The notes under the pieces were generated by a model that had not been told where the DNA came from, made no database searches, and worked only from the letters and a program-made list of their open reading frames with translations. This document shows, piece by piece, positions 1 to 58,679 of a DNA stretch of 61,150 nt; the stretch's first letter is position 1; every line of letters begins with the position of its first letter. The DNA is from a virus (Duplodnaviria > Caudoviricetes): positions 1 through 61,150 of IMG/VR virus record IMGVR_UViG_3300031704_000002; one strand, 5' to 3'. Made by a program: the position numbers and the translations under genes.

Positions 1-2963
1 TCTTCCCGCTTTCTCTGAAAGATAGCCTTACGACCACTAAGGGTAAGAGCCTCTGTACCGGGTCCAATCATAGCTCCAATCTGGGTCTCTAGCTCATTTA
101 CTGCATTGAGAGTCATTGGAGTAGCAATAGCATCATCTAAGAAGGGTCGAACCATCTCACCACCAGTAGGTGTCAGGTATCCACGGTGGTAGATACGGCC
201 ACGGCTATCCATGTATGTATCCGACCAAAAGGGTTTACCACGATTTGTCTGGTACCTGCCTGCTGTCATGAAACCAAAGCCTTGGTCACCACGTTTGATG
301 ATCTCGTGTCTAAACTCATTAAGGCCATCGTAGTAATCTGTGTTACCGCGAGGGTCACGGAACCTAACAACATCATCCATAAAGTTAAAGAACACCGGAT
401 CTGTTTGGTATTGTGTACCAGAGGCTTGGTTTAGAGCATTAGCAAAGTCTGCATCAACCTGATTTGCGTCAAAGCTAGCGTACTTACGTCTAGATATGAT
501 AGGTCTGCCGGTAACATTACCACGAGCATCAAAGGCTTCCTTCTTACCAGCGCGGACAAACTGCCTATCTCTATCAAAAGAAATACCCATACGTCTGCCA
601 ACAACAACTCGTCTTTCAGCCTTCTGTAGCTCAATAAGACGTTTGTCGATTACCTCAACCTCTCTAGAAACTGTGTCTCCCCAGAAGCCTGTGGCACGAC
701 CTGTCTCTACATCTAGAACACCTCTGCGGGTCTTACCACGGTAGTTGAGACGGATCATCTTTCTGTCCTTCATGTAATCAAGGACTCTGGAACCGTCTTT
801 GTGGTAGTCTTGTAAAGTGTGTTTCTGGAATGGGTTAACATCTTCTAGATCTTTTGCCATTTGTTTACCAATAGCAATAGCAAGACCGTCGTAGTCTGTC
901 ATTTGTCCAGAACCAACAAGCTTTACTGCTTTAGAAAGAGAGTTGAGTACTTTGTCATCCATTACCTTTGATGTAGGATTCTTCTTAGATGTAAGAAATT
1001 CAAAGTCAATAATTCTACGAATACGTTCATCGATACCACGTTCAAATCTAACAGCTAATTCGTCTGTGGGTGTTCTATACCATTTTAGGTACTTAGCAAA
1101 TGAGGTTTTCTCCCAACGCTTCTTAAGTGTTTCGGGCTTCTTGACTTTTCCTAGAAGACCTTGGAAATAAGACCTTGGTGGGCTTTTCCCTCTGAAGTAA
1201 AGCTCTTTCGAGAGTTTAGCTCCAACACCAGTACGGAAGGAATCAATAGACCTCTGATCTGCAAGAAGTCTATCCTGTAGCTGATCAATCTTGTAGTAAT
1301 CACCCATAAGCTGGACTTGAGGTCCTCCTTCTTTAGCACCAAAGAAGCGAGAAAATAAGTTGTATTTATCTCTCTGTCTAGTATCAAGAAGACGGGCAGT
1401 GTTCTGAACAGCAAATCTATTTTCTGCTCTAAGTACATTAGCAAAGTTGTCCCAAGGCTGCTTGTCTTTCCTAGCTCGCTCTATTACAACCCTAAGGTTT
1501 TCAATAGCAACTGTTTGCTGATTTGTTGACACTTTCTCTTCTAAGGAGTTAATCACAGATTCAATGAAGTCTTTATCTTCAGATTGGAGGACTTTAGAGT
1601 TCCTCATGAAGTCAAGACGTTCTTGTAGAAGTGTGTAGTTAGGATCATAAAGGTTGTTGTTTCTTGCCTCACCTGTAAGGGGGTCGAAGCTATTATTACT
1701 TTCATCGAAGATGTTAGCTGTACGGCGACGAGCGGTTTGTTTACCTTGCAGTGTTGTACCTTTAAAGTCCGTTAGAGAGTAAGTTTTACCGAGATCATCA
1801 GCATCATTGACAAATAGATCTACAACCTCTCGCTTATACTTAGCATTCCTGACGAGGGTGCTAGGGCGCGCCACAGCGATCTGTGTTACGACATCTTCAC
1901 CTATCGACTGCTTAGGGCGGAAAATGTTAGTAAGATTAGCAGCACGACGTCTCAAAGCAGTAATAGAGAGTGCGCTACCTTGAGGTGTCACAAAGTTATC
2001 GGCTTTGACTTCTCCTTTTCGGAAAAGATCTGCCTTTTCTTGACTACCAAGGATCTTTGTTTGGACATCATAAGCCTGACGTTTAAGCCACTGACCAAAG
2101 GTTTCTTTCTCTGGGGGAGATCCTGTTAAAGAACTTCCTTTCGTGGTTTCAAGAGCAGCTAAATTGATCCTATCAGACTCTTTCTTTAGCAGTTCGGCTT
2201 TGCTCTCAAATATAGGAACAAGGGTAGAACGGCAGTTAAAGTGTAGTGGAGGGGCAAAACGCCTATCACCTACATCATAGATCTTACCATCATGATAACG
2301 ACAAATGCTAGAAGTACGATTATCAAGCATTGCTTGGAACATGTAGCCTTTGATGGCTTCCTTGTTTTCCCCTACCGCACTAAACAGAGCATCGCGCTGC
2401 GTAGCTGTGATACCTGTACGAGAAAGAGTACCCGCTTGGTGGGCTGTCATCTTGGTTGTTTTGCTGACGTCACTAATAATTTGATTTTGAGACTTATTAT
2501 CTCTACGACCACGCTTCAACCAAGTTTGTACCCTAGTTGTCTCACCACGAGCAATGTTCTCTACGTTATTTTTGATAGCAGCATCACCGTTGATACTAGC
2601 GCCAGTAATATCTGCTAGATCAGCCTTGTTCTTAGGTCTACGAACGGAGAACCATCCTTTAGTGTGTTTTGAGATACTATCAGTGTAGAAATCTACCTCA
2701 GCACCATGTAGCTCTGTCAAATTTGTCTTCTGCCAAGAAAAGAGCTCTGTAGCAAAACGGTTTTGCTCTCGTCTGAATTTGTTGGCTATTTTCTTCTTTT
2801 GATCAATAGTAGTTGTTGCTAAGTCTTCCTTAACAAGCTTAACTAGAGACTCACGATGACGATTTACAATACGACTATTACCAATCTGAATGCTCTCTTC
2901 GAACTTTCTAACGTCAGTAAGGTGATCAATCACCTCGTCGTTCATTTTCTGTGTAACATCCAT
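1..2963 (-). CDS. MuF (Phage_Mu_F / SPP1 gp7-like) minor head protein fused to a T7-like single-subunit RNA polymerase; partial, runs off the left edge (>987 aa)
   Basis: ATG at 2963 with AGGAGA RBS. In the same frame: GYMFQAMLDNRTSSICRYHDGKIY...PPLHFNCRSTLVP (MuF motif, ~2210-2350) and KPFWSDTYMDSRGRIYHRGYLTPTGGEMVRPFL (~140-240; T7 RNAP DxRGRxY palm region). No stop in the first 60 codons, and the ORF track lists no closed ORF in this frame, so the frame is open to the edge. Confidence 0.85.
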   Translation of the reverse strand, partial: MDVTQKMNDEVIDHLTDVRKFEESIQIGNSRIVNRHRESLVKLVKEDLATTTIDQKKKIANKFRREQNRFATELFSWQKTNLTELHGAEVDFYTDSISKHTKGWFSVRRPKNKADLADITGASINGDAAIKNNVENIARGETTRVQTWLKRGRRDNKSQNQIISDVSKTTKMTAHQAGTLSRTGITATQRDALFSAVGENKEAIKGYMFQAMLDNRTSSICRYHDGKIYDVGDRRFAPPLHFNCRSTLVPIFESKAELLKKESDRINLAALETTKGSSLTGSPPEKETFGQWLKRQAYDVQTKILGSQEKADLFRKGEVKADNFVTPQGSALSITALRRRAANLTNIFRPKQSIGEDVVTQIAVARPSTLVRNAKYKREVVDLFVNDADDLGKTYSLTDFKGTTLQGKQTARRRTANIFDESNNSFDPLTGEARNNNLYDPNYTLLQERLDFMRNSKVLQSEDKDFIESVINSLEEKVSTNQQTVAIENLRVVIERARKDKQPWDNFANVLRAENRFAVQNTARLLDTRQRDKYNLFSRFFGAKEGGPQVQLMGDYYKIDQLQDRLLADQRSIDSFRTGVGAKLSKELYFRGKSPPRSYFQGLLGKVKKPETLKKRWEKTSFAKYLKWYRTPTDELAVRFERGIDERIRRIIDFEFLTSKKNPTSKVMDDKVLNSLSKAVKLVGSGQMTDYDGLAIAIGKQMAKDLEDVNPFQKHTLQDYHKDGSRVLDYMKDRKMIRLNYRGKTRRGVLDVETGRATGFWGDTVSREVEVIDKRLIELQKAERRVVVGRRMGISFDRDRQFVRAGKKEAFDARGNVTGRPIISRRKYASFDANQVDADFANALNQASGTQYQTDPVFFNFMDDVVRFRDPRGNTDYYDGLNEFRHEIIKRGDQGFGFMTAGRYQTNRGKPFWSDTYMDSRGRIYHRGYLTPTGGEMVRPFLDDAIATPMTLNAVNELETQIGAMIGPGTEALTLSGRKAIFQRKRE

Positions 2964-3133: not shown

Positions 3134-3209
3134 TGGCCGACCCGGAAGGACTCGAACCCTCACTTGAAGATTAGAAGTCAACTGTTCTATCCTGTTGAAC
3201 TACGGATCA
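3134..3209 (-). tRNA. tRNA-Arg(UCU)
   Basis: Cloverleaf with loop CTTCTAA, GGTTCGAGTCC T-arm and encoded CCA; two mismatches in the anticodon stem. Confidence 0.85.
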
Positions 3210-3261
3210 GTGTATAGTGTTTATAGTTTATGTGTGTCGTATCCTAGCTTAATCTTATGTA

Positions 3262-3337
3262 TGGTGGTCCTGCCGGGACTCGAACCCAGATATTACGATT
3301 ATAAGTTGTACGCTCTAACCAGTTGAGCTACAAGACA
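3262..3337 (-). tRNA. tRNA-Ile(UAU)
   Basis: TAGCTCAACTGGTTAGAGC D-arm, loop CTTATAA, GGTTCGAGTCCC, CCA; mismatch at 1:72 and one in the anticodon stem. Confidence 0.8.
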
Positions 3338-3350
3338 TTGATTATTAAAT

Positions 3351-3437
3351 TGGTACGGGTAGAGGGAGTCGAACCCCCACGTCTTTTAAAACACTAGGAC
3401 CTAAACCTAGCGCGGCTACCTATTTCGCCATACCCGC
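3351..3437 (-). tRNA. tRNA-Leu(UAG)
   Basis: GCGGGTATGGCGAAAT... loop TTTAGGT, long variable arm, T-arm, CCA. Confidence 0.92.
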
Positions 3438-3438
3438 A

Positions 3439-3515
3439 TGGTCCCCCACCCCGGACTCGAACCGGGAGAACCGGCAGTTTAAGTGCCGTACGGTTACCAA
3501 TTACGTCAGTGGGGA
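3439..3515 (-). tRNA. tRNA-Leu(UAA), short variable loop
   Basis: Anticodon arm CGGCA-CTTAAAC-TGCCG, GGTTCGAGTCC, acceptor TCCCCAC/GTGGGGG, CCA. Confidence 0.85.
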
Positions 3516-3533
3516 ATGGTACCGTGTAATTAG

Positions 3534-3608
3534 TGGTGGAAAGGGGAAGAATCGAACTTCCTACGCGCAGGGCTTCAACCTACCGCTCTACCTCTGAGCT
3601 AATCGGGT
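3534..3608 (-). pseudogene. tRNA-Phe(GAA)-like, unpaired acceptor stem (chimeric or pseudo)
   Basis: D-arm, GTAGG-TTGAAGC-CCTGC, T-arm and CCA present, but acceptor strands ACCCGAT and CCTTTCC do not pair. Confidence 0.65.
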
Positions 3609-3620
3609 AAATATAAATAA

Positions 3621-3674
3621 TGGCAGCTTAGGTAGGACTCGAACATACATGTGTTACCAGTCAGCCACTAAGCT
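3621..3674 (-). pseudogene. tRNA remnant lacking the anticodon arm
   Basis: Perfect acceptor AGCTTAG/CTAAGCT-G-CCA, D-loop-like TGGCTGACTGGTAA and TTCGAGT loop; 54 nt. Confidence 0.6.
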
Positions 3675-3680
3675 ATTAGT

Positions 3681-3827
3681 CTATCCAGCGATGAGAGCAA
3701 GAAAGATCACAAAAGCTATTGCCCCGCCACCTACAAGGAGACCAAGTGATTTAGTCTTAGACCAAGCTTTTACTTTATCTTTTGCTTCGATGACTTTTTC
3801 CTTTGCTGTATCAATGATGTCTTTCAT
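3681..3827 (-). CDS. Small membrane protein (48 aa) inside the tRNA cluster
   Basis: MKDIIDTAKEK... start with AGGAGA RBS; C-terminal hydrophobic helix. Confidence 0.6.
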   Translation of the reverse strand: MKDIIDTAKEKVIEAKDKVKAWSKTKSLGLLVGGGAIAFVIFLALIAG

Positions 3828-3850
3828 TGTATATCTCCTGATATCGAATA

Positions 3851-3925
3851 TGGTTGCGCAGAGGGGAGTTGAACCCCTAGTACAGGCCTTATGAGGGCCG
3901 CGTGTTACCATTACACCACCGCGCG
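3851..3925 (-). tRNA. tRNA-Met(CAU), initiator-like
   Basis: Loop CTCATAA, C1:A72 mismatch, GGTTCAACTCC T-arm, CCA. Confidence 0.88.
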
Positions 3926-3990: not shown

Positions 3991-5604
3991 TTATTCTTGT
4001 ACTTGTCCACCGTAGTCATTCATAGATCGAGCCATTTGGGCTACAGGGTCAGCCCTAATCTCGCTTACACCCTTTTCATCGTTGTAGTCGCCCGGAATGA
4101 AATCATTCTCTTTAGCGATATTAATAAAGACAGAACGAGGAATAAGGCCCATCTGGTACCACTCTGTAACAAGACGCATACCATCTTCACCCTGAGCCTG
4201 AGGACTAAAGTCCTTAGACATAGCAAAGTCAATATTTTCTGCTGTTAGTTCAAGATCGTAGCGCCAGTTAATCATAAACGCAATAACAGACCGCATAGTA
4301 TTAGAAATCTTCATATTAAGAGTACCAAGAGTGGCTGTCTGTGATGAGTTACGAAGCTCTAGTGCAATACCCGACTCTGTTGTCTCTGGGGCAAGCATAC
4401 GAATACCCAGCTTAGCTAGTTCCTCTAGAGTTTGTTCAATAGAGTCCTTCATATCGCTAAGAGCAGCGGTAGGAGGAGTGAGAACATCCGCTGTAACACC
4501 GCTAGGAAGGAACATCATAGTACCTAAACCTTGGCTAGCAATCTTCTGCTGTTCACCCTCTTCAATGTCTCCTATAAAGATAGGTGTGTAGGTAGCTGCG
4601 CCATACATCAAGTGGTTACGCCTAGAGATCTTATTGTAAAGGCCAATTTCTCGGTTAACAAAGGTTAATAGGATAGGCTCTTCAATATGAGTTTCACCGT
4701 CGAGAGGCCAAGCAGGGATACGTGCAAGACGCTTACCAAACTGTTGTGGTTTAAAAGTTTCATAAAGTTCATAACCAGTCTCTTCAATCCCTTCTTTTCC
4801 GGGTTTAAGACTGTTGTCAGTAATTTCTCCACCTTGAGCAGTGGCTGTAGAATTATTTTCTTTACGATACTCATCAACAACTAGAAAACCTTCCCTATCA
4901 ATGTAATGATCTCTTACGGTACTGACTAAGGTAGGATGCCAAGGGTTGTCATTTTTGTATACCGGAGTATAAAAACGAGTAATAAACCGTGTCATAGCCG
5001 GTAGGCCTGTAACGGGATGATATCCCTCAATAACGTTGATCACATTCTCTGCTGAAATAAGAGAAGGATAAGGCTTTACATAGTTTGCCTGCTTTGGAGT
5101 CATGTTCTCAGTTTCTTCTGGGGATACAGAAGGAACATCAACATAAATCCATGAATATGAAGTTTGCATCTCTTCCCAGACTGCGTCATCAAGAAAGTGA
5201 AACAGAGACTGATTATCAGAAGTAAATCTGTGTCTAATCCAGTCAATCATTTCCATCCTTAGAGTCTCTGGAATTTCATCAGGAAGTTCAAGATTAGATT
5301 CTTTTCTTAATAGAGCACCAGTCATTGAACGAGCGTACTGAGCAGTAACCCCCGGTAGTTCAGCTTCATCTTTATAGAAATTGTATTGATTTTGATCCAT
5401 AGTAGGCGAGAAAGGAAGCAAGATGTTCTTCTTATTGCCATCATGATCAATGTCATGAACAATCTCATCGTGGGCCTTTACAGCCTCTTGGCCTCGGACC
5501 ACAGCTCGGCACTTCGCCCAAGTCGATCTAATAGAATCGTATTGATAGGACGGAGTACCCACACTCGACTTGTTTACAGAGGTCGAGAGAGTAATTTTGG
5601 CCAT
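3991..5604 (-). CDS. Portal protein (DUF4055-like)
   Basis: 537 aa; resembles siphovirus DUF4055 portals (VRGQEAVK...LLP...YNFYK.EAELPG; ESGIALELR); upstream of MuF as in SPP1-type head operons. Confidence 0.8.
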   Translation of the reverse strand: MAKITLSTSVNKSSVGTPSYQYDSIRSTWAKCRAVVRGQEAVKAHDEIVHDIDHDGNKKNILLPFSPTMDQNQYNFYKDEAELPGVTAQYARSMTGALLRKESNLELPDEIPETLRMEMIDWIRHRFTSDNQSLFHFLDDAVWEEMQTSYSWIYVDVPSVSPEETENMTPKQANYVKPYPSLISAENVINVIEGYHPVTGLPAMTRFITRFYTPVYKNDNPWHPTLVSTVRDHYIDREGFLVVDEYRKENNSTATAQGGEITDNSLKPGKEGIEETGYELYETFKPQQFGKRLARIPAWPLDGETHIEEPILLTFVNREIGLYNKISRRNHLMYGAATYTPIFIGDIEEGEQQKIASQGLGTMMFLPSGVTADVLTPPTAALSDMKDSIEQTLEELAKLGIRMLAPETTESGIALELRNSSQTATLGTLNMKISNTMRSVIAFMINWRYDLELTAENIDFAMSKDFSPQAQGEDGMRLVTEWYQMGLIPRSVFINIAKENDFIPGDYNDEKGVSEIRADPVAQMARSMNDYGGQVQE

Positions 5605-5650: not shown

Positions 5651-5673
5651 CTCTTCTTTAACACATCGTATTT
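5651..5673 (-). promoter_or_regulatory. Phage RNAP promoter, class B (T7-like) AAATACGATGTGTTAAAGAAGAG
   Basis: Near-identical copy at 6008-6030; upstream of portal; AATACGA matches the T7 promoter upstream half. Confidence 0.6.
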
Positions 5674-5688
5674 TTGTTTTGTCTGCTG

Positions 5689-5995
5689 TAGGATCCTCTC
5701 TTGAGATCTAAGGCTTGAGGCTCTTTAAAAGTACTTGTTTAAGCTATCAACAAACAACAATGCTTTCGATTCAAGAGAGGTCCTCTTAGGGTCTCTTCTT
5801 AGCATCTACTGACTCCGATCTCGTCAGTAAGGTCCCTAGTTAGGATTCTTAAGGGTTTTCCCCTCTCTTTAACGTCACCTATTTATGTCTTTATTTACAA
5901 AGACTTATCTATCCTAAAACCATGAGTTTTGTCTAAATTTAGCCTCCTACTGACTCCGATCTCGTCAGTAAGGTCCCTAGTTAGGATTCTTTAGA
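5689..5995 (-). repeat. Promoter-linked hairpin module (2 copies of TACTGAC-GAGATCGGA-GTCAGTA core), homologous to 24060-24700
   Basis: Core actgactccgatctcgtcagtaagg at 5808 and 5949; flanks shared with the copies at 24181 and 24453. Confidence 0.9.
5863..5884 (-). promoter_or_regulatory. Phage RNAP promoter, class A (SP6-like) AAATAGGTGACGTTAAAGAGAG
   Basis: One of 7 intergenic copies; resembles the SP6 promoter ATTTAGGTGACACTATAGAA. Confidence 0.75.
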
Positions 5996-6007
5996 TTTTC
6001 TTTTTTC

Positions 6008-6030
6008 CTCTTCTTTAACGCATCGTATTT
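6008..6030 (-). promoter_or_regulatory. Phage RNAP promoter, class B AAATACGATGCGTTAAAGAAGAG
   Basis: Second copy of the 5651 motif. Confidence 0.6.
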
Positions 6031-50806: not shown

Positions 50807-50829
50807 CTCTTCTTTAACGTCACCTAATT
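50807..50829 (-). promoter_or_regulatory. Phage RNAP promoter, class A
   Basis: AATTAGGTGACGTTAAAGAAGAG heading the replication module. Confidence 0.78.
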
Positions 50830-51513
50830 TTATGTTACAGGCCAAGCAACTAGAATACGTCCTTCTCTTCTTTCTGGGTGTATGTAAGGTATAGCACCCC
50901 AGAAGAGTATATCACAAAATTCTGATCGCTCAAATGCTTTCAAAAGTTTAGCGTGCTGGTTAGCGGTTGTTAGTTCTACTGCAACATAGTCTTTTTTAGA
51001 GTGGGGAGGTAAAAAGAGTCCAACGTAGACTAGCTTAAGATCCTCGCATATTTCTTTCAGTTCGTCAAGTAGCTCATCTAATTCTTCTTTTCTCATCTTT
51101 TCCTTTCAACCAGTGCTGAGCGTCGTCAAACGGGTCAATGAAGACACTGCCTAACTGCAACTGTAGGCCACAATCCAAACGGAATTGCGACAAGTTTCTC
51201 TCTTGAGTCGGACTCTGGATCATAGGTGACCATCCCAACGATAGCTCCTTCAATATCAGCCCTCCCTATTACTTTGAACAGACAAACAGCATCTTTAGGT
51301 AAAGTACCTTGGAATGCACCCGGTGCTTTTATCCAGAACATCATACCCTTAAAAACTATGGTAGGCTCTACACAGGGATCTAGGCTGTAAATTGCTATTA
51401 TTTCAGACTCCAGTTCTTCAATGCGTTCAAGCAAAGCAATATGAATATAATCCGCACAACCAAGAGACCTTAACTTCTCAATTCGTTCTCTTGATATATT
51501 TACTTTTACTTTA

Positions 51514-52908
51514 TTATGCAAAGGCATAGTCTGATTCCTCTATTTTGCTAAGATCTAGTTTGCCTCTTTCTGGCATTAGATCTAAAGAGTTAAGTTCTTC
51601 TAAGATCTCTCTAAGAGGATCTATTTCATGTAGCCGTCTAAACGTTTTGCGTACCCTGTAGAAGAGATCTTCCATATGGGCGGCATGACAACCGAAAGAG
51701 TCATGTACCACAACAACTGAAAATGAGCAATCATGTACAGTATGGGCCAAGTGTGCAGCATCCAACGAATGTACGATGTTTGGTGCAGCCCCTGTTTTTT
51801 GCTTGCTTTCGTTAAGAGTACTCTCTTCCCAAACTTGAATTTGGACCCACAGAGTTTTGGGTCCATGTTGTAGGCGTACGCGTACAGCCTTTGCTTTTCG
51901 ATACTCTTGTACCACTGGAAACCCAGTAGTTGGTGTATGCCATGTGAGCGGCTTATTTTCTTCATTTGCTCTCTCCGCAAGGGTTTCAAACAGCCTGAGC
52001 ATTCTAGCTGGGCCTTTTAGTTCATCATAACAGGTACGATATACTAAGTCTCCTAACATTATACCCCAGAGATAGTCCTTGTCTCTCAGATAATCGCTAA
52101 TACCTCTGGTGTCCTCAATTACTTGTTGACCCATACCGTAGGGGGTACCGCCATAACCGAGTGTCATAGTATTTCTCTTGACGCTTGATCTCCTCTGTTT
52201 CTTAGTTAATTTGAGCCAATAGACAGGGAATAGCTTTTCTCTAAGATCCCTATTACTCTGTTTCCATTTCATAAGATTCTTATAGGCAATTTCCTTACGA
52301 TCTGACCCAAGAGGAGCTTCAGAGTACTTCTTTTGCAGCTCTATACCCTTACTTTGCACAGCACTAAATCTATTTACTACTTTCTTAGGTAGTTTGCTAC
52401 GCATGTCTTCTAACCTAGACCATACCTTATCAGCAATGAACATGTATACATCGCCGGGGGTAGCTTGAGGTACAAGATTGACAAGAGGCGCAACCTCTTC
52501 ATCACGGGACATAGCAGCAAGGTGTTGAACACCATTGTTACTACCGTCTATGAAGACCGGTAGGCAAGACGGGAAATCTTCTGATTCTTCACCTCGCTTT
52601 TCCCACGCAGTCAAGGCTTCAATTTCAAAGCAAGAGGCTAAGAAAGAGAAAGGTTTATCAGCTTTCATCCATCCACGATGAGAAAGCGGATCGCGCGCGT
52701 AATCTTTAATATAATGCAAGTTATCTTCTACCCACTCAACTCTTTCTTTTAGCGGTATCTTGTCTTCTCCCCATACATTTGCAGCATAGGTGCATAACCA
52801 CTTTTGGCCGTTAGGACCTAGCGGGACTGGTTCGTCCAGCATTAGGATACCGCGAGCGTTATCTGAAGACTGTTCATGTAAGAATGCCGTGTTGGGATAA
52901 ATCCTACC
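51514..52908 (-). CDS. T7/SP6-like RNA polymerase, exon 2
   Basis: GRIYP; motif A DGSNNGVQHL; motif B RSSVKRNTMTLGYG; PNIVHSLDAAH; motif C VHDSFG. Confidence 0.95.
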   Translation of the reverse strand, partial: GRIYPNTAFLHEQSSDNARGILMLDEPVPLGPNGQKWLCTYAANVWGEDKIPLKERVEWVEDNLHYIKDYARDPLSHRGWMKADKPFSFLASCFEIEALTAWEKRGEESEDFPSCLPVFIDGSNNGVQHLAAMSRDEEVAPLVNLVPQATPGDVYMFIADKVWSRLEDMRSKLPKKVVNRFSAVQSKGIELQKKYSEAPLGSDRKEIAYKNLMKWKQSNRDLREKLFPVYWLKLTKKQRRSSVKRNTMTLGYGGTPYGMGQQVIEDTRGISDYLRDKDYLWGIMLGDLVYRTCYDELKGPARMLRLFETLAERANEENKPLTWHTPTTGFPVVQEYRKAKAVRVRLQHGPKTLWVQIQVWEESTLNESKQKTGAAPNIVHSLDAAHLAHTVHDCSFSVVVVHDSFGCHAAHMEDLFYRVRKTFRRLHEIDPLREILEELNSLDLMPERGKLDLSKIEESDYAFA

Positions 52909-53629
52909 CATATTGTTCGCAGAAGATCGTTAGTCTTCTACCGTAACATGCGACCAAGTTTTTCCAGCCCTTATTTGTTTTATGCACCACTCCGTGACAT
53001 TAAACTTTTTTGCAAGAGCCTTCCTCCTCATATTAGGTCTCTTCTTTACTTCTATTACTTCTAGTTCTGTAAGTTTCCTCATTGGGTTTTTCCTTCCATT
53101 CATCCTGTAAGAATGAAGTTGATTGTGAGGAGGAGTACATCTTTCTAGATTACAAAGGCTGTTGTTGAGCGGGTTTCCGTCTATGTGGTTAACCTGTGTC
53201 AGGCTAGGCACCTTTAAGATAAAACTATCCGCAACAAGCTGATGAACTGTTTTTGTGCATCTCTTTGATTTATAACATAGAACTAAAGTCAGGTAACCTT
53301 TAGAGTTTTTAGTAGGCTTGAGATATCTACCTTTTCTTAACGCCATAGTTCCACTGAAGGGAACAAGAGTATCTAAACGACGTACTTCTCCTTTATTAGA
53401 TACTTGGTATACGGTTTCAAAGCCTTTAATATCTTTCCATATTCGCATGTTCTGCTCCTTATTACTAAGAAGATCGGACTATATCATACCTATACTAGGC
53501 CTCTGCGCTTCGAGCCACTTGGCTCTACATAATAGTCTCTACACCTTCTAATTAAAAATTAGCTTGGCTCGGTATTGTCACATTGGATGTTTACCGAATT
53601 CACAGAGTTTTACTTCCGCCATAGGATTA
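52909..53629 (-). mobile_element. Group I intron (721 nt) in the RNAP gene
   Basis: P1 ACTTCCGT/GCGGAAGT with U.G at the splice site; P10 AATCCTA/TAGGATT; core AATTCGGT..ACCGAGCCAAG, GTAGAGACTA..GATATAGTCC; terminal G; splicing restores DFR|GRIYP. Confidence 0.92.
52930..53448 (-). CDS. Intron-encoded NUMOD4-HNH homing endonuclease
   Basis: IWKDIKGFE..YQVSNKGEVR (NUMOD4); VHQLVA..F, VNHIDGNPLNN..CNLE (HNH). Confidence 0.92.
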   Translation of the reverse strand: MRIWKDIKGFETVYQVSNKGEVRRLDTLVPFSGTMALRKGRYLKPTKNSKGYLTLVLCYKSKRCTKTVHQLVADSFILKVPSLTQVNHIDGNPLNNSLCNLERCTPPHNQLHSYRMNGRKNPMRKLTELEVIEVKKRPNMRRKALAKKFNVTEWCIKQIRAGKTWSHVTVED

Positions 53630-54430
53630 ACGGAAGTCGAAGTTATATAAGTGGTAGAAAGTTTTATCGAGGTGGAGATTTGCAAGCTTTTGGACGGCTT
53701 CCGCTTCTATTAGCATAGACCGTCTTTTCTTGTTGTCGACCTCTTTATAATATTTGAACGGAGACTCACTATAGTCTTCGGATTTTTCCATGAAGTGTTC
53801 ATAGACTGCAAAGACATCCTTGTTGATCCTCCATCCAGTGCTGCTTAGTTTATTTAGAACATAGAAAAGCACTTCCATTTCTTCGCTGGGTCTTTTAAAT
53901 GGGTCAAGTTGCATGGCAGACCCTCTTTTAACAATTGGTGTGCCAGTAGTTGAATGATATGGATATCCCTTGACCCAAGGTGCTGGGACGATATTGACAG
54001 GAAACATGTCACAATTGTCCATATCAATTGTATCAATCAGAGTCTTGAGACGTTTCCAATCTTCTGCTACAATAACATAGGCTCTGTGCTTAGAGACCTT
54101 TGTATTTCGATTTGTCTTTTCTTTTGTGTAAGAAATCAAGCCAATGTCTATGAAACTTATTACAATAAACCACCCAGCATGGATTTCCATAATAGAGTCT
54201 TGTGGTAGCTTGTTCTTTTGTCTTAGCCTACGACCAATAGAAGCAGATAGCTCTACCAGCGTTCCTCTTCGCTCAATTGCTCTCAGAACATGGGGGTAAC
54301 TGAAGGCGATAAGGTTTTCCGCAGATAGTTTCTCTTCCGTGAGCCAGTAGGCACCATTTCTGGTGTCAAGATTTTCAAGACGGTAACTTAGGTCTTGTTC
54401 GAGGGCTTCTAGAGTTTCTGATGCTTCCAC
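53630..54430 (-). CDS. T7/SP6-like RNA polymerase, exon 1
   Basis: LNKLSSTGWRINKDV and FYHLYNFDFR immediately before the intron; spliced product about 731 aa. Confidence 0.9.
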
Positions 54431-54446
54431 ACCGCCTCCTGTTATC

Positions 54447-54980
54447 TTACTTATGGAAGTAGTTATGAGTGTTATCGTAAACTTTTAACCAGTTATAAAT
54501 AGAATCCTTACTACATCCAAACTTTTCTGCGGCTTTAGTAGGACCTACTTTAATAGCCTCTTGACATGCTCTCATACGAAAGGAATCATCGTAGTCTCCG
54601 ACGACCTGAAGGATATCTCCAGTTTTACCGAAAGTTGGTTCCCTTAGCCTTGTAGTTCTCCAAGCAGTAGATTTCGAAACCCCGTAACGAGCTGCAGTCC
54701 TAGAGATAGAGAAACTAAGGGGCTGATCGTTCTTGATTATGTTTTGGTTATTTCCCCAACCAGAGAAGTTAAACCTAAGGTTTACCGATCCTTTAGTCTG
54801 GTCCTGCGTCTTGGCCTTACCAGAACATGCTTTTGAAGATTTCTTCGACTGGCCTTTCACTATCACTGTTTTCGTAGGTGTGTGACAGTTTGTCGTTGAT
54901 GAGTCCAACGACGACTGGGAACTGAGCGTTTTGTTTTGTGACTTCTGCCTTGCTGGCTTCAACTTTTCTAGTAGGCTCAT
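54447..54980 (-). CDS. Putative HTH DNA-binding protein
   Basis: Two HTH-like segments (TAARYGVSKSTAWR; AAEKFGCSKDSIYNW). Confidence 0.65.
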   Translation of the reverse strand: MSLLEKLKPARQKSQNKTLSSQSSLDSSTTNCHTPTKTVIVKGQSKKSSKACSGKAKTQDQTKGSVNLRFNFSGWGNNQNIIKNDQPLSFSISRTAARYGVSKSTAWRTTRLREPTFGKTGDILQVVGDYDDSFRMRACQEAIKVGPTKAAEKFGCSKDSIYNWLKVYDNTHNYFHK

Positions 54981-55296
54981 AAGGAATTACTCCATTCTTA
55001 ATAAATTCTTTATTGATTTCTTCAAGTTGATTTTCTCCAAGAAACATTTCATAACCGTTTCTAAGCGTAATTACTTGATATTCGTTTTTCATAGCTTACC
55101 CTTTCAGATAGTTTCTCTTAGAACCTTGGACCGAAGCCGTCTTTGTTAGATAGTATTAATAAGAACACTAGCACTAGGCCTGAAACAACGCTAGCTAGTC
55201 CAAATGTGGGGTAATCAATCCACCAAGGTGCATCGAAGTACCATACTATGGTGTAGACGACCCAAGATAATATGACGGGAATCCAGTAGAATATAA

Positions 55297-55911
55297 TCAT
55301 ACTCGATACGCCTCCGATTGCATTTCCATATCACTTGTCTTTGGGTTTGATCCGAGGTCATAGTTTGATCCGTAGAATCGGAAAGCTCGTACGATCAAAA
55401 GACCCACGTCTTGACGAACACCAAGTTTAGATGCCTGACTAAGGATGCCAGCAATCAGAGTTAGCTCTTGATCCATGCGTTCTGGTTTTATAGAAGCTTG
55501 AAAAAGAAGGCTATCAAGTTGATCCAACATTCTGACAATATCTTTCTGGCGGTCTGTAACTGCTGCGGGGTAAGTAAAGCTCCTTGAACAATGGAATTCA
55601 AACCTCTTCATTTCATTAGATTCTAGATTGTCAAGAGCTTTCTTTAGTTCAGGAGATTTGTTTTTAGCATGATGAGGTGAGTCACCTGCTGCAAACTCTG
55701 GTGCATCATGCATAATGATATACAAAACTGTTTGTAGGTCAACTTCTTTTTTAAAAAGAGACAAAAGCAGCTTCACCATACGAGCAGAATGTGCGTCTGT
55801 GAGATCTGCCGAGTTTCTGAGGCTATGCTCATGGTGTGAGTGATAACGATTTACGAAACCAGATCGCCACAACGTGAACGTTTCTACTGCGTTTTCAATT
55901 TCTTTAGACAC
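55297..55911 (-). CDS. HD-domain phosphohydrolase (YfbR-like)
   Basis: VNRYH...HS, MHDAPE..GD.P, DQLD motifs. Confidence 0.8.
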   Translation of the reverse strand: MSKEIENAVETFTLWRSGFVNRYHSHHEHSLRNSADLTDAHSARMVKLLLSLFKKEVDLQTVLYIIMHDAPEFAAGDSPHHAKNKSPELKKALDNLESNEMKRFEFHCSRSFTYPAAVTDRQKDIVRMLDQLDSLLFQASIKPERMDQELTLIAGILSQASKLGVRQDVGLLIVRAFRFYGSNYDLGSNPKTSDMEMQSEAYRV

Positions 55912-56105
55912 TGTGTGTAATCCTCATACGCTTGATTGGTTTATTAAGATAGGCGCGACATTCAAAGAATTCAAGGGGATTTACCCCGCCATTTGGGCGA
56001 ACTTTCATAATGTATTTAGCGACTTTACGCTCAAGACTTTCGGTGTTTGTAGCAGTAATCTCCTTAGTTTTCAGGATTTTGTTATTTGTCATTATTTGCC
56101 TCTTG

Positions 56106-56148
56106 AAAAAAAATTAGGTATTTACCCCCCGCCCCGAAGGGCGAGGGG
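56106..56148 (-). terminator. Terminator hairpin with UUCG loop
   Basis: CCCCTCGCCC-TTCG-GGGCGGGGG, then TAAATACCTAATTTTTTT. Confidence 0.65.
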
Positions 56149-56265
56149 AAAGAGACATCACTCACATTACCAGATTTGCACGGTTTTATTAGGATTCTTG
56201 GCACATTTGTGCTAGATAGTTGTAGGTGTGGTTACGATCAAACTTCCCGATAGACACGTCATAAC

Positions 56266-56640
56266 TTATTTTAGCATCTTTTCGTTGATTTGACACAGAT
56301 AGCCATAACCAAACCCTATTGGGATAGTACACATCCTTTTTAGGATTCCAGCGTCTTCGAGAGCTTTAGCAACGCCCTCGTTTTCTGAATATTCTTTAAC
56401 TAGGGCAAAAGAGCTACGCAGGGGTTTGGGAACAGCTTTTTCCATAACACCAGCTACAAAGGCTGTAGGCCTAGACCACAGTTCTCCGTCTTTGGAGATA
56501 TGAATAGCTAATGAGCCATCTTCATATGTCTCAGAAACATCAACATCATACTCTCCTTTGGGAATATATTTGCTATGCAGGAACGCCTTTATTTTTGCCA
56601 TGTCATCCTCCGATTCCATGAGTGATGTAAAAACCTGCAA
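56266..56640 (-). CDS. Hypothetical phage protein
   Basis: VKEYSENEGV..AL..AGI motif. Confidence 0.65.
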   Translation of the reverse strand: MQVFTSLMESEDDMAKIKAFLHSKYIPKGEYDVDVSETYEDGSLAIHISKDGELWSRPTAFVAGVMEKAVPKPLRSSFALVKEYSENEGVAKALEDAGILKRMCTIPIGFGYGYLCQINEKMLK

Positions 56641-57217
56641 TAAGCAGGGTGAATAGGGCGCTTACACCCAGTAGATCTACTAAGAAGTTCCGCATCGGAG
56701 TTTCCATCTTGGATTGTTTCATTGAATTTTTCTCTGTGCCCGTAAAGAACGGAAACAGCGTTATCTCTATAGCGTCGGTAGGGTGATTGTTCCACCCTCT
56801 TACATCCTATTCACGGTCTCTATGGTGGGAGTTGTTATCCGTATCACGCTATTTGGATATCTTGTATTCCTACACAAGCCTTTAACATGACTTGCAGCAT
56901 CTTAAACAGTCGGGGGCCGATATGGATAACCAGTAGACCGATTCCCTTCCTGATAAGACGTTTAAGGAATTTCTCTAGGGAAGGCCAGACATACTTGAAG
57001 AACAAGTACTCAACAGCTTTCTCTATCAAAACTACAAGACACCCGAAGAAGCTCATTAGCTTAACCTCGGGTGTCTGTCAGAGTTTCCTTCATTGAACCT
57101 CTTACTTCTTTGCGCAGATTACCTCTGACACCACTAGCGCGATGGTATAGACAGCTACAATGACTGATGCAGCCATAATAGTGACTATGATTGTACAGAG
57201 GGTTGAAATGAAATTTA

Positions 57218-57613
57218 TCATGCCAAGACCACCTTGACAAGAAGTTTGCTCGTTTCCCATGCTGTGATCAAGATCGACATGGGGAAGATCAGCGGCATCA
57301 TCATTAGAAACACAGTCAAAACTGCAAAACCGTTTCCAGCCCAAGTAGCAAGCCCGTGAAGAGAGGGATGCTCGATGTGGACGTCATAGAGACGAGTGAT
57401 GAAACACAAGCTGAGAGTCACAACGGTTGCAACAGCCAGAGCTAGAGCCGAGCTAGCCACGCTGGCAAAGATATCAAAAGCCATTACAACCGAGAGGTAG
57501 ACTGCAACCCCCATAACACAGGCCACAGAGATTGCCATAGCTGCACGAGCAGCAGGCTTACGGCGAAGAGTGTTCCACTTGTTGCGGAACCAGAGTTTGA
57601 TACGATTAATCAT
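57218..57613 (-). CDS. Multi-pass membrane protein
   Basis: Several hydrophobic helices; AGGA RBS. Confidence 0.65.
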   Translation of the reverse strand: MINRIKLWFRNKWNTLRRKPAARAAMAISVACVMGVAVYLSVVMAFDIFASVASSALALAVATVVTLSLCFITRLYDVHIEHPSLHGLATWAGNGFAVLTVFLMMMPLIFPMSILITAWETSKLLVKVVLA

Positions 57614-57624
57614 TGTTGTGTCCT

Positions 57625-57930
57625 TTATTTACGAGGCTTGCGGTTGGCTTTACGCAGAGGTTTAGTCTTACGTGCTTTTTGACGAGTAGAATGAGGATCG
57701 AAAGCTTTTGCTCTCTCCCCGGCCTCTGCAGTTTTAGCAGCAACCAGTTCTTCCAGTTTGGAAGACTCATCAGTGGAAGTCGAGGCGCTTTCCTCCGCCT
57801 GAGTTTCCTCTTTAGGAGCGTCCTCTTTCGTCGTCTTGAAGAACGACTTCAGAAAGTCCAGAAGCTGGGTCTGAAACTTGATTGTTTTGTCCGTAACTTT
57901 ACGAACGATTTTTTTGATGAAGTTGAACAT
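57625..57930 (-). CDS. Hypothetical protein
   Basis: AGGAG RBS; charged C-terminus. Confidence 0.6.
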   Translation of the reverse strand: MFNFIKKIVRKVTDKTIKFQTQLLDFLKSFFKTTKEDAPKEETQAEESASTSTDESSKLEELVAAKTAEAGERAKAFDPHSTRQKARKTKPLRKANRKPRK

Positions 57931-58303
57931 GTCGTGCTCCTTTTTGTATGACGACGATTGATTTTGCCCAGCATTCTAGTGCTGACTTGTTAGTTATTTT
58001 TTGGACAGAATTTAGTTTCTGCCTTTTATCGTGGTTTATGCTGCTTCGGTCTTCGAGAATACAAGAACCATCAGGGTGATCAGCCCTATGATATTCTTTG
58101 CAATACCCAGCCCAAGGAGCACACTAGCAACCCACCCAAAGGTGACGCTGACTGCGAAAGCTCCGTAGATGAGGGCGATAGCGATAGTGACACTAGCAAT
58201 AGTGCTGATGATGGCCATAGTCATAGTAATGCTCCTTGAGCTTAGTGTGTTTGACATAGTGAACAGTTTATACACATGTTCAGGTGTTAGCTTTCAAAGC
58301 CCG

Positions 58304-58558
58304 TTAAAACTGAGAAAGCTCGTAGGTCATGAGCGTGAACTCAAGAGTGTCCTTGTAAGACATATAGACTTCCCCTTCATTTGCAAAGCTGAAAGGATCA
58401 GACCCATCGTCAAACATGAGATCACAGTAGATCCCTTTCTTGTTGATGACAGTTGCGTACGCTGTAGACCTACCATCTTCTTTGATGATACCAGTGAACA
58501 ACTCTGTATCTATATCTTCGTGCTTACTGGTCCCGGTTTGGATGATCTTGAGTGGCAT
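58304..58558 (-). CDS. Hypothetical early protein
   Basis: Follows the repeated leader with GAAAGGG RBS. Confidence 0.55.
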   Translation of the reverse strand: MPLKIIQTGTSKHEDIDTELFTGIIKEDGRSTAYATVINKKGIYCDLMFDDGSDPFSFANEGEVYMSYKDTLEFTLMTYELSQF

Positions 58559-58562
58559 GGTC

Positions 58563-58639: not shown

Positions 58640-58679
58640 CTCGTACGTTTTTCCACCTTGTTACATGGCAACCTTGCGG

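What the first reader, a model, noticed from the sequence alone, without database searches (positions are those of the whole stretch)
1..2963. MuF minor head protein fused to a second T7-like RNA polymerase: candidate capsid-delivered virion RNAP
Seen: one open minus-strand frame from ATG 2963 to the window edge, absent from the ORF track. It carries the MuF signature LDNRTSSIC...PPLHFNCRSTL (ending ~aa 248). Further on it reads FANALNQASGTQYQTD and DSRGRIYHRGYLTPTGGEMVRPFLDDAIATPM (~aa 919), collinear with T7 RNAP DWRGRVY..FNPQGNDMTKGLL. Known: SPP1 gp7/MuF proteins are portal-associated, packaged in few copies, and can carry C-terminal toxin cargo. Virion RNAPs are known from N4 and other phages in different architectures. 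Inference: MuF serves as a packaging/ejection tag for a polymerase that starts transcription on infection, while the separate RNAP at 51.5-54.4 kb handles middle/late genes. I do not recall this fusion being characterised. The ~550 aa between the domains is unassigned, and catalytic motifs A/B/C would lie beyond the window.
Basis: partly seen in the sequence, partly recalled or inferred. Interest (0 to 1): 0.95.

Follow-up and report, generated by a model that had tools for sequence, protein, structure and literature searches.

The report
Head-anchor protein fused to RNA polymerase
This long-tailed phage fuses its portal-associated minor head protein (MuF) to a complete T7-type RNA polymerase, so it probably carries its own transcription enzyme in the capsid; here the gene is cut off by the contig end and also interrupted by a self-splicing intron.

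Summary
The minus-strand frame from ATG 2963 to base 3 is open for 987 codons and stops only because the contig ends. Residues 1-347 are a MuF domain. Residues 359-987 are the N-terminal half of a T7-type RNA polymerase.

Near-identical contigs supply the rest of the gene. It holds motifs A, B and C, and a 277-nt group I intron sits inside motif B. Splicing would give a 1464-aa protein 61% identical to the uninterrupted 1463-aa protein of roseophages DSS3_VP1/PM1.

The fusion is widespread, with 388 coding stretches in IMG/VR. The portal gene lies directly upstream in 41 of 41 loci. Catalytic residues are conserved in 101 full-length relatives. A model of the polymerase module matches T7 RNAP at E 1e-19.

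Packaging and ejection are inferred, not shown. I found no paper describing the fusion. Other agents of this scan reached the same reading on other genomes. The intron and its recurrence are new here. The closest analogues are N4 vRNAP and the tape-measure-fused vRNAP of P23-45.

The parts
3..2963 (-). First 987 codons of the MuF-RNA polymerase fusion gene. The spliced product is 1464 aa. The gene is cut by the contig end.
   Evidence: Open frame. The window is the whole record. It is collinear with the 1821-aa P0002 and with the 1463-aa DSS3_PM1/VP1 protein.
1923..2963 (-). MuF (SPP1 gp7-like) minor head protein domain, aa 1-347. The Pfam match covers aa 157-248, bases 2220-2495.
   Evidence: Pfam PF04233 at 44.4 bits. 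phrog_241 matches aa 6-343 at E 1e-44. The LD..TS..C and PP.H..CRS residues are conserved in 101 relatives. The AF2 model is confident to about aa 347.
1890..1922 (-). Predicted flexible linker, aa 348-358, between MuF and the polymerase module.
   Evidence: pLDDT is below 50 for residues 348-358, between two confident blocks, in the AF2 model of the window's own 987 aa.
3..1889 (-). N-terminal half of the T7-type RNAP module, aa 359-987: N-terminal domain, thumb and the start of the palm.
   Evidence: A Foldseek search with the window's own model gives T7 RNAP as the top four hits (E 1.5e-4 to 9e-4), followed by the small subunit of N4 RNAPII. The ortholog's whole module matches T7 RNAP at E 1.4e-19.
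189..209 (-). DSRGRIY, aa 919-925, the counterpart of T7 RNAP's DWRGRVY palm motif.
   Evidence: Translation. The family profile aligns this stretch to T7 RNAP residues 415-467. D.RGRVY is conserved at 97% or more in 101 sequences.
3134..3925 (-). Cluster of five or six tRNA genes between the portal gene and the fusion gene.
   Evidence: ARAGORN finds 5 tRNAs. Rfam finds 5 tRNA hits. DSS3_VP1 has a tRNA in the same place.
3991..5604 (-). Portal protein gene, the expected docking partner of the MuF domain.
   Evidence: phrog_145 portal, E 2.5e-43. A portal gene lies directly upstream of the fusion gene in 41 of 41 related loci that have more than 1900 nt of upstream sequence.
5651..6030 (-). 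Three T7/SP6-like promoter-like sites upstream of the portal-tRNA-fusion operon. Class B has its cores at 5651-5662 and 6008-6019. Class A has its core at 5866-5873.
   Evidence: Sequences are shown. GTTAAAGAWGRG occurs 6 times against 0.10 expected.
51514..54430 (-). The separate canonical T7-like RNAP gene, split by a group I intron that carries an HNH endonuclease ORF (52930-53448).
   Evidence: Pfam RNA_pol scores 276 bits on the ORF at 51514-52911, and NUMOD4 plus HNH_3 hit 52930-53448. Rfam Intron_gpI scores 53.4 bits at 53455-53639.
50819..61150 (-). Presumed early region, which includes the canonical RNAP gene. It has no T7/SP6-like promoter site and is the candidate template for the capsid-borne polymerase.
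   Evidence: No promoter-like GTTAAAGA site lies above 50818; the one match at 56400 has no promoter-like upstream half. Sigma-70-like sites are at chance level, 9 found against 9.8 expected. A 46-nt element is repeated four times.

Best explanation
The gene encodes one polypeptide of two parts: a MuF (SPP1 gp7-type) minor head domain (aa 1-347), a short flexible linker, and a complete, deeply divergent T7-type single-subunit RNA polymerase (aa 359-1464).

Shown:
- The fusion exists.
- It is the norm for a large family of long-tailed phages.
- The catalytic residues are conserved.
- The polymerase module has the T7 RNAP fold.
- The gene sits in the head module directly after the portal gene.
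- In this phage a 277-nt group I intron interrupts motif B.

Inferred:
- The gene is expressed late with the head genes.
- The intron self-splices after U of ...AACAU and before GGUAAG, rebuilding the motif B sequence K-A-Q-N-M-V-S-F-Y-G.
- The MuF domain docks on the portal and brings a few copies into the procapsid, as SPP1 gp7 does.
- At the next infection the protein leaves with the DNA and transcribes the early region. That region lacks T7/SP6-like promoters and contains the gene for the canonical phage RNAP.
- The canonical RNAP then reads the ten T7/SP6-like promoters of the middle and late genes.
For: The frame is real and is truncated only by the contig end. The MuF domain is identified by Pfam at 44.4 bits and by PHROG at E 1e-44.

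Near-identical contigs continue the gene. P0002 aligns residues 1-1171 in one frame and 1170-1487 in another, 272 nt further on. Rfam Intron_gpI scores 103.1 bits against a gathering score of 50 at that gap, and its P1 helix ends in a U-G pair at my splice site. The exons joined in a script give 1464 aa with no internal stop, 60.8% identical to P0005 over residues 1-1463.

Of the 121 stored relatives, 101 are full length. Most of the 120 listed carry PF00940 plus PF04233. D.RGRVY, NDAS.SGAQ, AK..NMV..YGAG, GVNGNH..DA..VR and IHDAF are conserved at 97% or more in those 101. The family profile hits T7 RNAP in three collinear stretches at E 1.4e-3.

The AF2 model of ortholog aa 350-1463 has pLDDT 81.4 and pTM 0.74. 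Foldseek matches it to T7 RNAP at E 1.4e-19 over about 950-1030 alignment columns, with TM 0.49-0.57 normalised to the target. The window's own model has T7 RNAP as its top hits.

The portal gene is directly upstream in 41 of 41 loci. Scaffold-position and coat genes and a tape-measure gene follow downstream.

This polymerase clade was seen only as MuF fusions. Long hits in 1.84 billion cluster representatives begin about 330-370 residues into the protein. All 6 remote members tested carry Phage_Mu_F. They keep the motif A Asp, the motif B Lys and Tyr-Gly, and the motif C Asp.

A second, canonical RNAP co-occurs with the fusion in 4 of 5 related records and in the window.

Precedents:
- N4 injects a vRNAP that transcribes early genes (abstract of PMC4496689, listing).
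- The siphovirus P23-45 carries a vRNAP fused to its tape measure protein. It transcribes pre-early genes, including the gene of a second RNAP (abstract of PMC10770324).
Against: There is no direct evidence that the protein is in virions or is ejected. The paper that described DSS3_VP1/PM1 does not contain the words 'RNA polymerase' or 'minor head', and it reports no virion proteomics.

The SPP1 passages say that gp7 supports the start of infection. They do not say that it enters the cell.

In this phage an active enzyme needs splicing, and no RNA data exist to show it.

I found no promoter that can be assigned to the fused polymerase. The 46-nt early-region repeat is absent from 5 related records at up to 3 mismatches. 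Sigma-70-like sites are at chance level, which argues neither way.

The idea that a deoxyuridine genome forces the phage to bring its own polymerase does not fit this window. It has no dCMP-deaminase-family gene, nor does an 88%-complete relative, whereas DSS3_VP1 has one.

Sequence similarity to T7 RNAP is very low: phmmer finds nothing, and only the family profile reaches E 1e-3.
Confidence: 0.6

Rival explanations
1. The fusion is packaged, but its main job is mechanical rather than regulatory. A polymerase tethered at the portal or at the leading DNA end would grip the genome and pull it into the cell by transcribing, as RNA polymerases do for T7 genome entry. Gene expression would be secondary.
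For: The packaging evidence is the same as for the best explanation. SPP1 virions that lack gp7 assemble normally, but only about 25% are infectious, which points to a role at the start of infection. The T7 entry mechanism is recalled from the literature and was not checked here.
Against: A canonical second RNAP gene lies in a region without phage-type promoters. That region needs some polymerase to read it first. The full promoter-binding N-terminal domain is retained. This reading overlaps with the best explanation rather than excluding it.
Confidence: 0.12
2. The protein is not delivered. It works in the producing cell, for example as a late-gene polymerase or as a transcription-packaging coupler at the portal. 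The MuF part does only its usual head-morphogenesis job.
For: The gene lies in a late operon behind T7/SP6-like promoters. Two promoter classes exist in the window, and two in DSS3_VP1, which could serve two intracellular polymerases.
Against: MuF/gp7 domains are targeted to the procapsid interior by the portal, so a covalently attached polymerase would be taken along. The clade was never seen without MuF, which is hard to explain for a cytoplasmic enzyme. The early region still lacks a phage-type promoter.
Confidence: 0.15
3. In this particular phage the intron is not removed. The product is then a 1140-aa MuF protein with a dead polymerase stump, possibly with a separate C-terminal fragment.
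For: Gene callers report the 1140-aa form (P0003, 49 member sequences). Of the 20 short relatives, 19 end within motif B. No RNA run holds the locus.
Against: The Rfam group I intron score is 103 bits. The splice site has a U-G pair, the intron ends in G, and the frame is restored exactly. Exon 2 keeps the conserved motif C and the C-terminus under evident constraint, at 42% identity to P0002 with no stops. The ATG-initiated ORF downstream (L005 13893-14672) would lack the Tyr-Gly of motif B.
Confidence: 0.05
4. The polymerase module is a catalytically dead structural relic, used as bulk cargo or as a DNA-binding plug.
For: Sequence divergence from T7 RNAP is extreme.
Against: The catalytic Asp of motifs A and C and the Lys and Tyr-Gly of motif B are invariant or nearly so in 101 relatives. 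They persist in members only 24-37% identical.
Confidence: 0.03

Closest known systems
Coliphage N4 virion RNA polymerase gp50 and the N4 polymerase relay (Schitoviridae)
   Same: Both are T7-family single-subunit RNAPs made late and carried in the capsid. In N4 the enzyme is proposed to transcribe early genes, which encode a second T7-like RNAP (abstract of PMC4496689; passages of PMC5512222).
   Different: N4 gp50 is about 3500 aa and comes from a short-tailed phage. Its own N- and C-terminal regions serve for injection and encapsidation, and it has a metallopeptidase domain. The protein here is 1464 aa in a long-tailed phage and its carrier is a MuF domain. Structurally it is nearer to T7-type phage RNAPs (E 1e-21 to 1e-16) than to N4-like vRNAP segments (E 1e-12 to 1e-10).
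Tape-measure-fused virion RNAP of Thermus phage P23-45
   Same: It is a long-tailed phage in which a virion structural protein is covalently fused to an RNAP. That RNAP transcribes pre-early genes, including the gene of a second, non-virion RNAP (abstract of PMC10770324).
   Different: The P23-45 enzyme is a two-barrel RNAP related to cellular RNAPs, and it is fused to the tape measure protein. Here a T7-type right-hand polymerase is fused to the portal-associated MuF protein.
SPP1 gp7 / MuF proteins with C-terminal cargo (MuF polymorphic toxins)
   Same: The N-terminal MuF domain sits in the slot after the portal gene. Cargo is fused to its C-terminus, and the logic of portal-mediated capsid targeting is the same (passages of PMC5512222).
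   Different: Known or predicted cargoes are toxins and small enzymes such as RelA/SpoT, RNases and ADP-ribosyltransferases. No RNAP cargo is named in the passages of PMC5512222 that I read. That paper states that N4-like vRNAP modules occur only in N4-like phages.
T7 / SP6 RNA polymerase
   Same: The whole fold matches, including the N-terminal domain. The counterparts of DxRGR, motifs A, B and C and the HSQDG-type motif are present. The genome carries SP6-like promoter sequences.
   Different: Sequence similarity is marginal: phmmer finds nothing in the PDB. The protein is fused to a capsid protein and is encoded in the head module, not the early region. The phage's other RNAP is the close T7 relative, at E 1.8e-58 for the DSS3_VP1 ortholog.

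Membership tests
Phage_Mu_F / SPP1 gp7 minor head proteins (PF04233) | Profile match above the curated cut-off | tested here: met
   44.4 bits against a cut-off of 29.6, aa 157-248. phrog_241 at E 1.2e-44.
Phage_Mu_F / SPP1 gp7 minor head proteins (PF04233) | Gene placed directly after the portal gene in the head module | tested here: met
   In the window the portal gene is at 3991-5604, then the tRNAs, then the fusion gene. The same order holds in 41 of 41 related loci.
Phage_Mu_F / SPP1 gp7 minor head proteins (PF04233) | Binds the portal and is present in procapsids and virions in a few copies | not testable with these tools
   This needs virion proteomics or pull-downs. None were found in the papers read.
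T7-like single-subunit RNA polymerases (PF00940) | Profile match above the curated cut-off | tested here: inconclusive
   The window fragment itself gets no Pfam RNA_pol hit, only phrog_414 at E 1.2e-3. Full-length relatives pass: P0002 at 35.8 bits and the DSS3_VP1 protein at 28.8 bits, against a cut-off of 22.
T7-like single-subunit RNA polymerases (PF00940) | Catalytic Asp of motif A, Lys and Tyr of motif B, Asp of motif C | tested here: met
   All are present in the near-identical contig L005 once the intron is removed. They are conserved at 97% or more in 101 relatives. They lie beyond the window edge.
T7-like single-subunit RNA polymerases (PF00940) | Right-hand polymerase fold with the T7-type N-terminal domain | tested here: met
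   AF2 pLDDT is 81.4. Foldseek matches T7 RNAP at E 1.4e-19 over about 1000 alignment columns. The window's own model also hits T7 RNAP.
T7-like single-subunit RNA polymerases (PF00940) | Promoter-dependent RNA synthesis | not testable with these tools
   This needs a biochemical assay.
N4-like virion RNAP (Schitoviridae gp50) | Giant protein of about 3500 aa with a metallopeptidase-containing C-terminal encapsidation region, in an N4-like podovirus genome | tested here: not met
   The protein is 1464 aa. Pfam finds only MuF and RNA_pol. A tape measure gene is present downstream, so the tail is long. The protein may work like an N4 vRNAP, but it is not a member of that family.
Group I intron (RF00028) | Covariance-model score above the gathering score | tested here: met
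   103.1 bits against 50, E 1.3e-27, at L005 13392-13621.
Group I intron (RF00028) | The 5' splice site follows a U paired with G in P1, the intron ends in G, and excision restores the host frame | tested here: met
   P1 pairs GAACAU with GUGUUC. The intron spans L005 13402-13678 and ends in G. The spliced frame has no stop and reproduces the motif B sequence of intron-less relatives.
Group I intron (RF00028) | Splicing actually occurs | not testable with these tools
   This needs transcripts of the locus or an in vitro self-splicing assay.

The most novel reading that the evidence does not exclude
A whole, isolated clade of T7-type RNA polymerases exists only as C-terminal cargo of the portal-binding MuF protein. 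On this reading, a large and globally distributed group of long-tailed phages (Naomviridae and relatives) injects a single-subunit RNA polymerase and runs a two-polymerase relay that is independent of the host enzyme from the first minute. This delivery route would be distinct from those of N4 and P23-45. In a sizeable minority of these phages, production of the active enzyme would also depend on self-splicing of introns that have repeatedly invaded the codons of motif B.
Probability: 0.5. Interest if true: 0.8.

Novelty: new variant of a known kind. Interest (0 to 1): 0.68.

Why it matters
Virion-borne RNA polymerases are known from only a few phage groups: N4-like, phiKZ/AR9-like, crAss-like (recalled) and P23-45. 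Each has changed how we think phages take over cells.

Here the cargo-carrying logic of MuF proteins, so far linked to toxins, is applied to a complete T7-type polymerase. This occurs in an abundant family of long-tailed environmental phages that includes the cultured, non-pathogen system DSS3_VP1 / Ruegeria pomeroyi.

That makes several questions directly testable:
- whether MuF cargo really enters the host cell;
- how a protein of nearly 1500 residues passes through a long tail;
- what promoters such an enzyme reads.

It would also provide a new, compact, highly divergent single-subunit RNAP for study. The repeated intron invasions of the motif B codons add a clean example of homing into the most conserved site of a gene.

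Tried and rejected
Portal-MuF complex prediction (portal 537 aa with MuF aa 1-350, both given as alignments): no verdict, score 0.00. This is not used as evidence either way.

Expression and splicing evidence. The look-up of sequencing runs listed 24 DNA holders, from lake and salt-lake metagenomes that may be the source, and no RNA holder. Read laying on 4 DNA runs showed one contig spanning L005 12900-14700 without differences and no joint, so no intron-less DNA form was seen. Contigs of the other three runs break at about 13591-13636, inside the intron.

phmmer of P0002 against PDB sequences found 0 hits. Only the family profile reached T7 RNAP.

Candidate early promoter. The 46-nt repeat of the early region occurs 4 times. 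It was not found in 5 related records at up to 3 mismatches, so I do not claim it as the fused polymerase's promoter. The sigma-70 scan was at chance level.

Deoxyuridine rationale. The window has a YfbR-like HD hydrolase at 55297-55911. It has no PF00383 deaminase, unlike DSS3_VP1. I therefore dropped the argument that a dU genome requires the phage's own polymerase for this phage.

A recent duplication as the origin of the two RNAPs. BLASTP of the canonical DSS3_VP1 RNAP against the fused module gives only 20% identity over 184 residues, E 0.011. They are not close paralogs.

Literature. Searches found no description of a MuF-RNAP fusion. I read passages only of PMC8323127, PMC5512222, PMC12669031, PMC11806420, PMC6316719 and bioRxiv 10.1101/2025.10.29.685362. 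For PMC12697855 I saw a term search with no hits, the abstract and section 2.2. For PMC10770324 I read the abstract. For PMC4496689 I saw only the start of the abstract in a search listing. The annotation tables of PMC8323127 could mention the polymerase domain. Subscription-only papers were not searched.

The related-loci result keeps the best 80 of 388 stretches, and all 80 are uninterrupted. That set therefore cannot give an intron frequency. The figure of 19 of 121 comes from the protein list and depends on the length window searched.

Full report
WHAT IS IN THE WINDOW. The window is an entire IMG/VR virus record of 61,150 bp, classed linear and estimated 87% complete. On the minus strand a frame runs from ATG 2963 to base 3 without a stop, 987 codons, and is cut by the contig end. 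Relatives start at the same methionine. Pfam finds Phage_Mu_F at aa 157-248 (44.4 bits, cut-off 29.6). PHROGs finds 'head morphogenesis' over aa 6-343 (E 1e-44) and a weak RNA-polymerase family at aa 908-967 (E 1.2e-3).

The gene follows the portal gene (3991-5604) and a cluster of five or six tRNA genes (3134-3925). All large genes are on the minus strand. They include a terminase, tail fibre genes and a 1488-aa tail protein. They also include rIIA-like, ribonucleotide reductase, primase-helicase and DNA polymerase genes.

THE REST OF THE GENE. Four IMG/VR contigs are 99.7-99.8% identical to the window over the overlap, and three of them run on past its edge. In L005 the frame meets a stop 153 codons beyond the window, giving 1140 aa from the ATG. 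The full-length relative P0002 (1821 aa) aligns residues 1-1171 in that frame. It then aligns residues 1170-1487 in another frame, 272 nt further on.

The gap is a group I intron. Rfam RF00028 scores 103.1 bits against a gathering score of 50, E 1.3e-27. Its P1 helix pairs GAACAU with GUGUUC, so the 5' splice site follows a U paired with G. The intron (L005 13402-13678, 277 nt) ends in G and has no ORF longer than 54 codons.

Joining the exons in a script gives a 1464-aa frame with no internal stop. It is 60.8% identical to the DSS3_PM1 protein over residues 1-1463. The codon split by the intron becomes the Met of K-A-Q-N-M-V-S-F-Y-G, exactly the motif B sequence of intron-less relatives. Motif A (ENDASSSGAQ) lies in exon 1 and motif C (IHDAF) in exon 2. 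The 'stop between the domains' that would have refuted the idea is explained by the intron.

WHAT THE MIDDLE 550 RESIDUES ARE. An AlphaFold2 model of ortholog residues 350-1463 was built from the IMG/VR copy of DSS3_VP1 with a 39-row alignment. It has mean pLDDT 81.4 and pTM 0.74. Foldseek against the PDB gives 74 matches at E <= 1e-3. T7 RNAP is on top at E 1.4e-19, aligned over about 950-1030 columns, with TM 0.49-0.57 normalised to the target. The mitochondrial RNAPs follow.

Against predicted viral structures the best foreign hits are T7-type phage RNAPs (E 1e-21 to 1e-16). Segments of N4-like virion RNAPs score lower (E 1e-12 to 1e-10).

The model of the window's own 987 residues has pLDDT 79.2 and a disordered stretch at 348-358 between two confident blocks. 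Its top four PDB hits are T7 RNAP (E 1.5e-4 to 9e-4). The small subunit of N4 RNAPII, which is the N-terminal part of a split T7-like enzyme, follows.

The architecture is therefore MuF (1-347), a short linker, and then a complete T7-type polymerase including its N-terminal domain. The 'unassigned' stretch is part of the polymerase.

HOW COMMON AND HOW CONSERVED. A word-indexed search with aa 400-987 found 171 proteins at E <= 1e-3, and 120 were listed. Most are 1450-1480 aa with precomputed PF00940 plus PF04233. Their sources call them 'SPP1 gp7 family head morphogenesis protein' or 'minor head protein-like protein'.

In an alignment of the 101 stored relatives of 1400 aa or more, the following are conserved at 97% or more:
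- the MuF motifs LD..TS..C and PP.H..CRS;
- D.RGRVY;
- NDAS.SGAQ (motif A);
- AK..NMV..YGAG (motif B);
- GVNGNH..DA..VR;
- IHDAF (motif C).

A profile of 39 members hits T7 RNAP in the PDB at E 1.4e-3, in three collinear stretches covering DxRGR, motif A and the motif C region. A single sequence finds nothing.

IMG/VR holds 388 stretches that encode a relative. In 41 of 41 loci with more than 1900 nt of upstream sequence, the portal gene lies directly upstream on the same strand, at a gap of 29-624 nt.

Among 50,697 deposited phage records only four cover 80% or more of the query. These are DSS3_VP1 (two records), DSS3_PM1 and EBPR siphovirus 1. In DSS3_VP1 the gene (DSS3VP1_00028, 1463 aa, 'minor head protein-like protein') lies between the portal gene plus a tRNA and the coat gene. 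A tape measure gene lies further downstream.

An exhaustive phmmer search of 1.84 billion cluster representatives with the polymerase module gave 144 hits at E <= 1e-3, 104 at 1e-10 and 62 at 1e-30. In the long hits the match begins about 330-370 residues into the protein. All six remote long members tested (24-37% identity) carry Phage_Mu_F at the N-terminus. They keep the motif A Asp, the motif B Lys and Tyr-Gly, and the motif C Asp. Ordinary RNAPs of about 800 aa appear only at E around 1e-4 to 1e-5. This polymerase clade was thus seen only as a MuF fusion.

THE SECOND POLYMERASE AND THE PROMOTERS. The window also encodes a canonical T7-like RNAP at 51514-54430. Pfam RNA_pol scores 276 bits on its second exon. 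A group I intron (Rfam 53.4 bits) carrying an HNH endonuclease ORF splits it. Four of five related records hold both polymerases; the fifth is a 49%-complete fragment that shows only the fused one. The two enzymes are not close paralogs, at 20% identity over 184 residues and E 0.011. The canonical one is the close T7 relative, E 1.8e-58.

Following coordinates from another first-reader note, I confirmed SP6-like sites of the form TAGGTGACGTTAAAGA (7 copies plus 1 variant). I also confirmed a second class, ATACGATGYGTTAAAGAAGAG, with 2 copies, both upstream of the portal gene. The core GTTAAAGA occurs 21 times against 3.6 expected. The SP6-like element recurs in DSS3_VP1, with 15 hits on the gene strand against 1 for the control pattern, and a second variant occurs there too.

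In the window every such site lies at or below 50818. The presumed early region 50819-61150, which contains the canonical RNAP gene, has none. Some other polymerase must read that region first. Sigma-70-like sites there are at chance level, 9 against 9.8 expected. A 46-nt element repeated four times in that region is not conserved in five relatives. I therefore cannot name the early promoter.

MECHANISM. The following are shown: the fusion, the fold, the conserved active site, the head-module position and the intron.

The following are inferred. The protein is made late. Its MuF domain docks on the portal and takes a few copies into the procapsid, as described for SPP1 gp7, whose relatives are thought to carry toxin cargo into the host in this way (passages of PMC6316719; PMC5512222). 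At the next infection the protein leaves with the DNA and transcribes the early region, including the canonical RNAP gene. The canonical enzyme then reads the T7/SP6-like promoters.

The same two-step logic is established in two other systems. One is N4 (abstract of PMC4496689, in the listing). The other is the long-tailed Thermus phage P23-45, whose virion RNAP is fused to the tape measure protein (abstract of PMC10770324). I put the full chain at about 0.6, the fusion with an active enzyme at above 0.9, and packaging at about 0.75.

WHAT SPEAKS AGAINST IT. There is no proteomic, expression or biochemical evidence. The paper that described DSS3_VP1/PM1 does not contain 'RNA polymerase' or 'minor head'. 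Neither do two later papers on this family. In this phage activity depends on a splicing event that I could not observe. The tempting argument that a deoxyuridine genome, shown for DSS3_VP1, forces the phage to bring its own polymerase does not carry over. DSS3_VP1 has a dCMP-deaminase-family gene (PMC12697855 section 2.2). The window and an 88%-complete relative have none.

THE INTRONS. Of 121 stored relatives, 20 are shorter than 1300 aa. Nineteen of these end inside or right after motif B, at four or more different points: after AKA, after QN, after NMV, and after FYG or LYG. EBPR siphovirus 1, only 25% identical, is broken at the same motif. Its break holds an HNH endonuclease gene and a group I intron-like match of 40.5 bits, which is below the gathering score of 50 (E 1.2e-8). 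The motif B codons therefore look like a repeatedly invaded homing site. In this window both RNAP genes are interrupted by group I introns within conserved polymerase motifs.

NOVELTY. Both ingredients are known: virion RNAPs, and MuF as a cargo carrier. I found no description of their combination in eight literature searches. The survey of polyvalent proteins states that N4-like vRNAP modules occur only in N4-like phages. New here are the truncation, the motif B intron and its recurrence. I rate the finding as a new variant of a known kind.

Noticed in passing
L005 13402-13678 (440 nt beyond the window's left edge); relatives P0003-P0120: A 277-nt ORF-less group I intron sits inside the motif B codons of the fusion gene. 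Nineteen of 121 stored relatives end at four or more different points within motif B, and EBPR siphovirus 1 is broken at the same place with an HNH gene. The site looks like one that introns have invaded repeatedly.
   Followed up: yes
window 52909-53639 (-): The canonical RNAP gene is also split by a group I intron (Rfam 53.4 bits). The intron carries a NUMOD4/HNH endonuclease ORF at 52930-53448.
   Followed up: partly
window 41439-44156 (-): The primase-helicase gene (Toprim plus DnaB_C) contains an intein at about aa 506-775, with Hom_end_hint, LAGLIDADG_3 and Hom_end domains. PHROGs mislabels this stretch as terminase.
   Followed up: partly
window 44297-44926 (-): A free-standing SegE-like GIY-YIG homing endonuclease gene lies beside a 5'-3' exonuclease gene. 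Together with the two introns and the intein, this makes the genome rich in selfish elements.
   Followed up: no
window 5651-50818 (-): There are two classes of T7/SP6-like promoter-like sites that share GTTAAAGA. The SP6-like class (TAGGTGACG...) has 7 copies plus 1 variant. A second class (ATACGATGY...) has 2 copies, both upstream of the portal gene. The SP6-like element is conserved in DSS3_VP1 (15 hits), which also has a second variant, TAGGGTGCG.
   Followed up: partly
window 58260-61150: The early region is built from repeated cassettes. A 46-nt element containing a TGAACA/TGTTCA inverted repeat occurs 4 times. A 127-nt exact repeat lies at 60664-60790 and again at 61024-61150, touching the contig end. 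The 46-nt element was not found in five related records.
   Followed up: partly
window 59214-60480: Two ORFs (59021-59851 and 59989-60642) show 15-nt periodic repeats, as expected for pentapeptide-repeat proteins.
   Followed up: no
window 55297-55911 (-): This ORF is a YfbR-like HD 5'-deoxynucleotidase, of the same enzyme class as the DSS3_VP1 dTMP phosphatase. However, no dCMP-deaminase-family gene occurs anywhere in the window, so it is open whether this phage has deoxyuridine DNA.
   Followed up: partly
L005 13591-13636: In three of four metagenome runs the contigs break inside the 3' part of the intron, with loose ends leading into other sequence. This suggests that the segment is shared with other elements in the same communities.
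   Followed up: no
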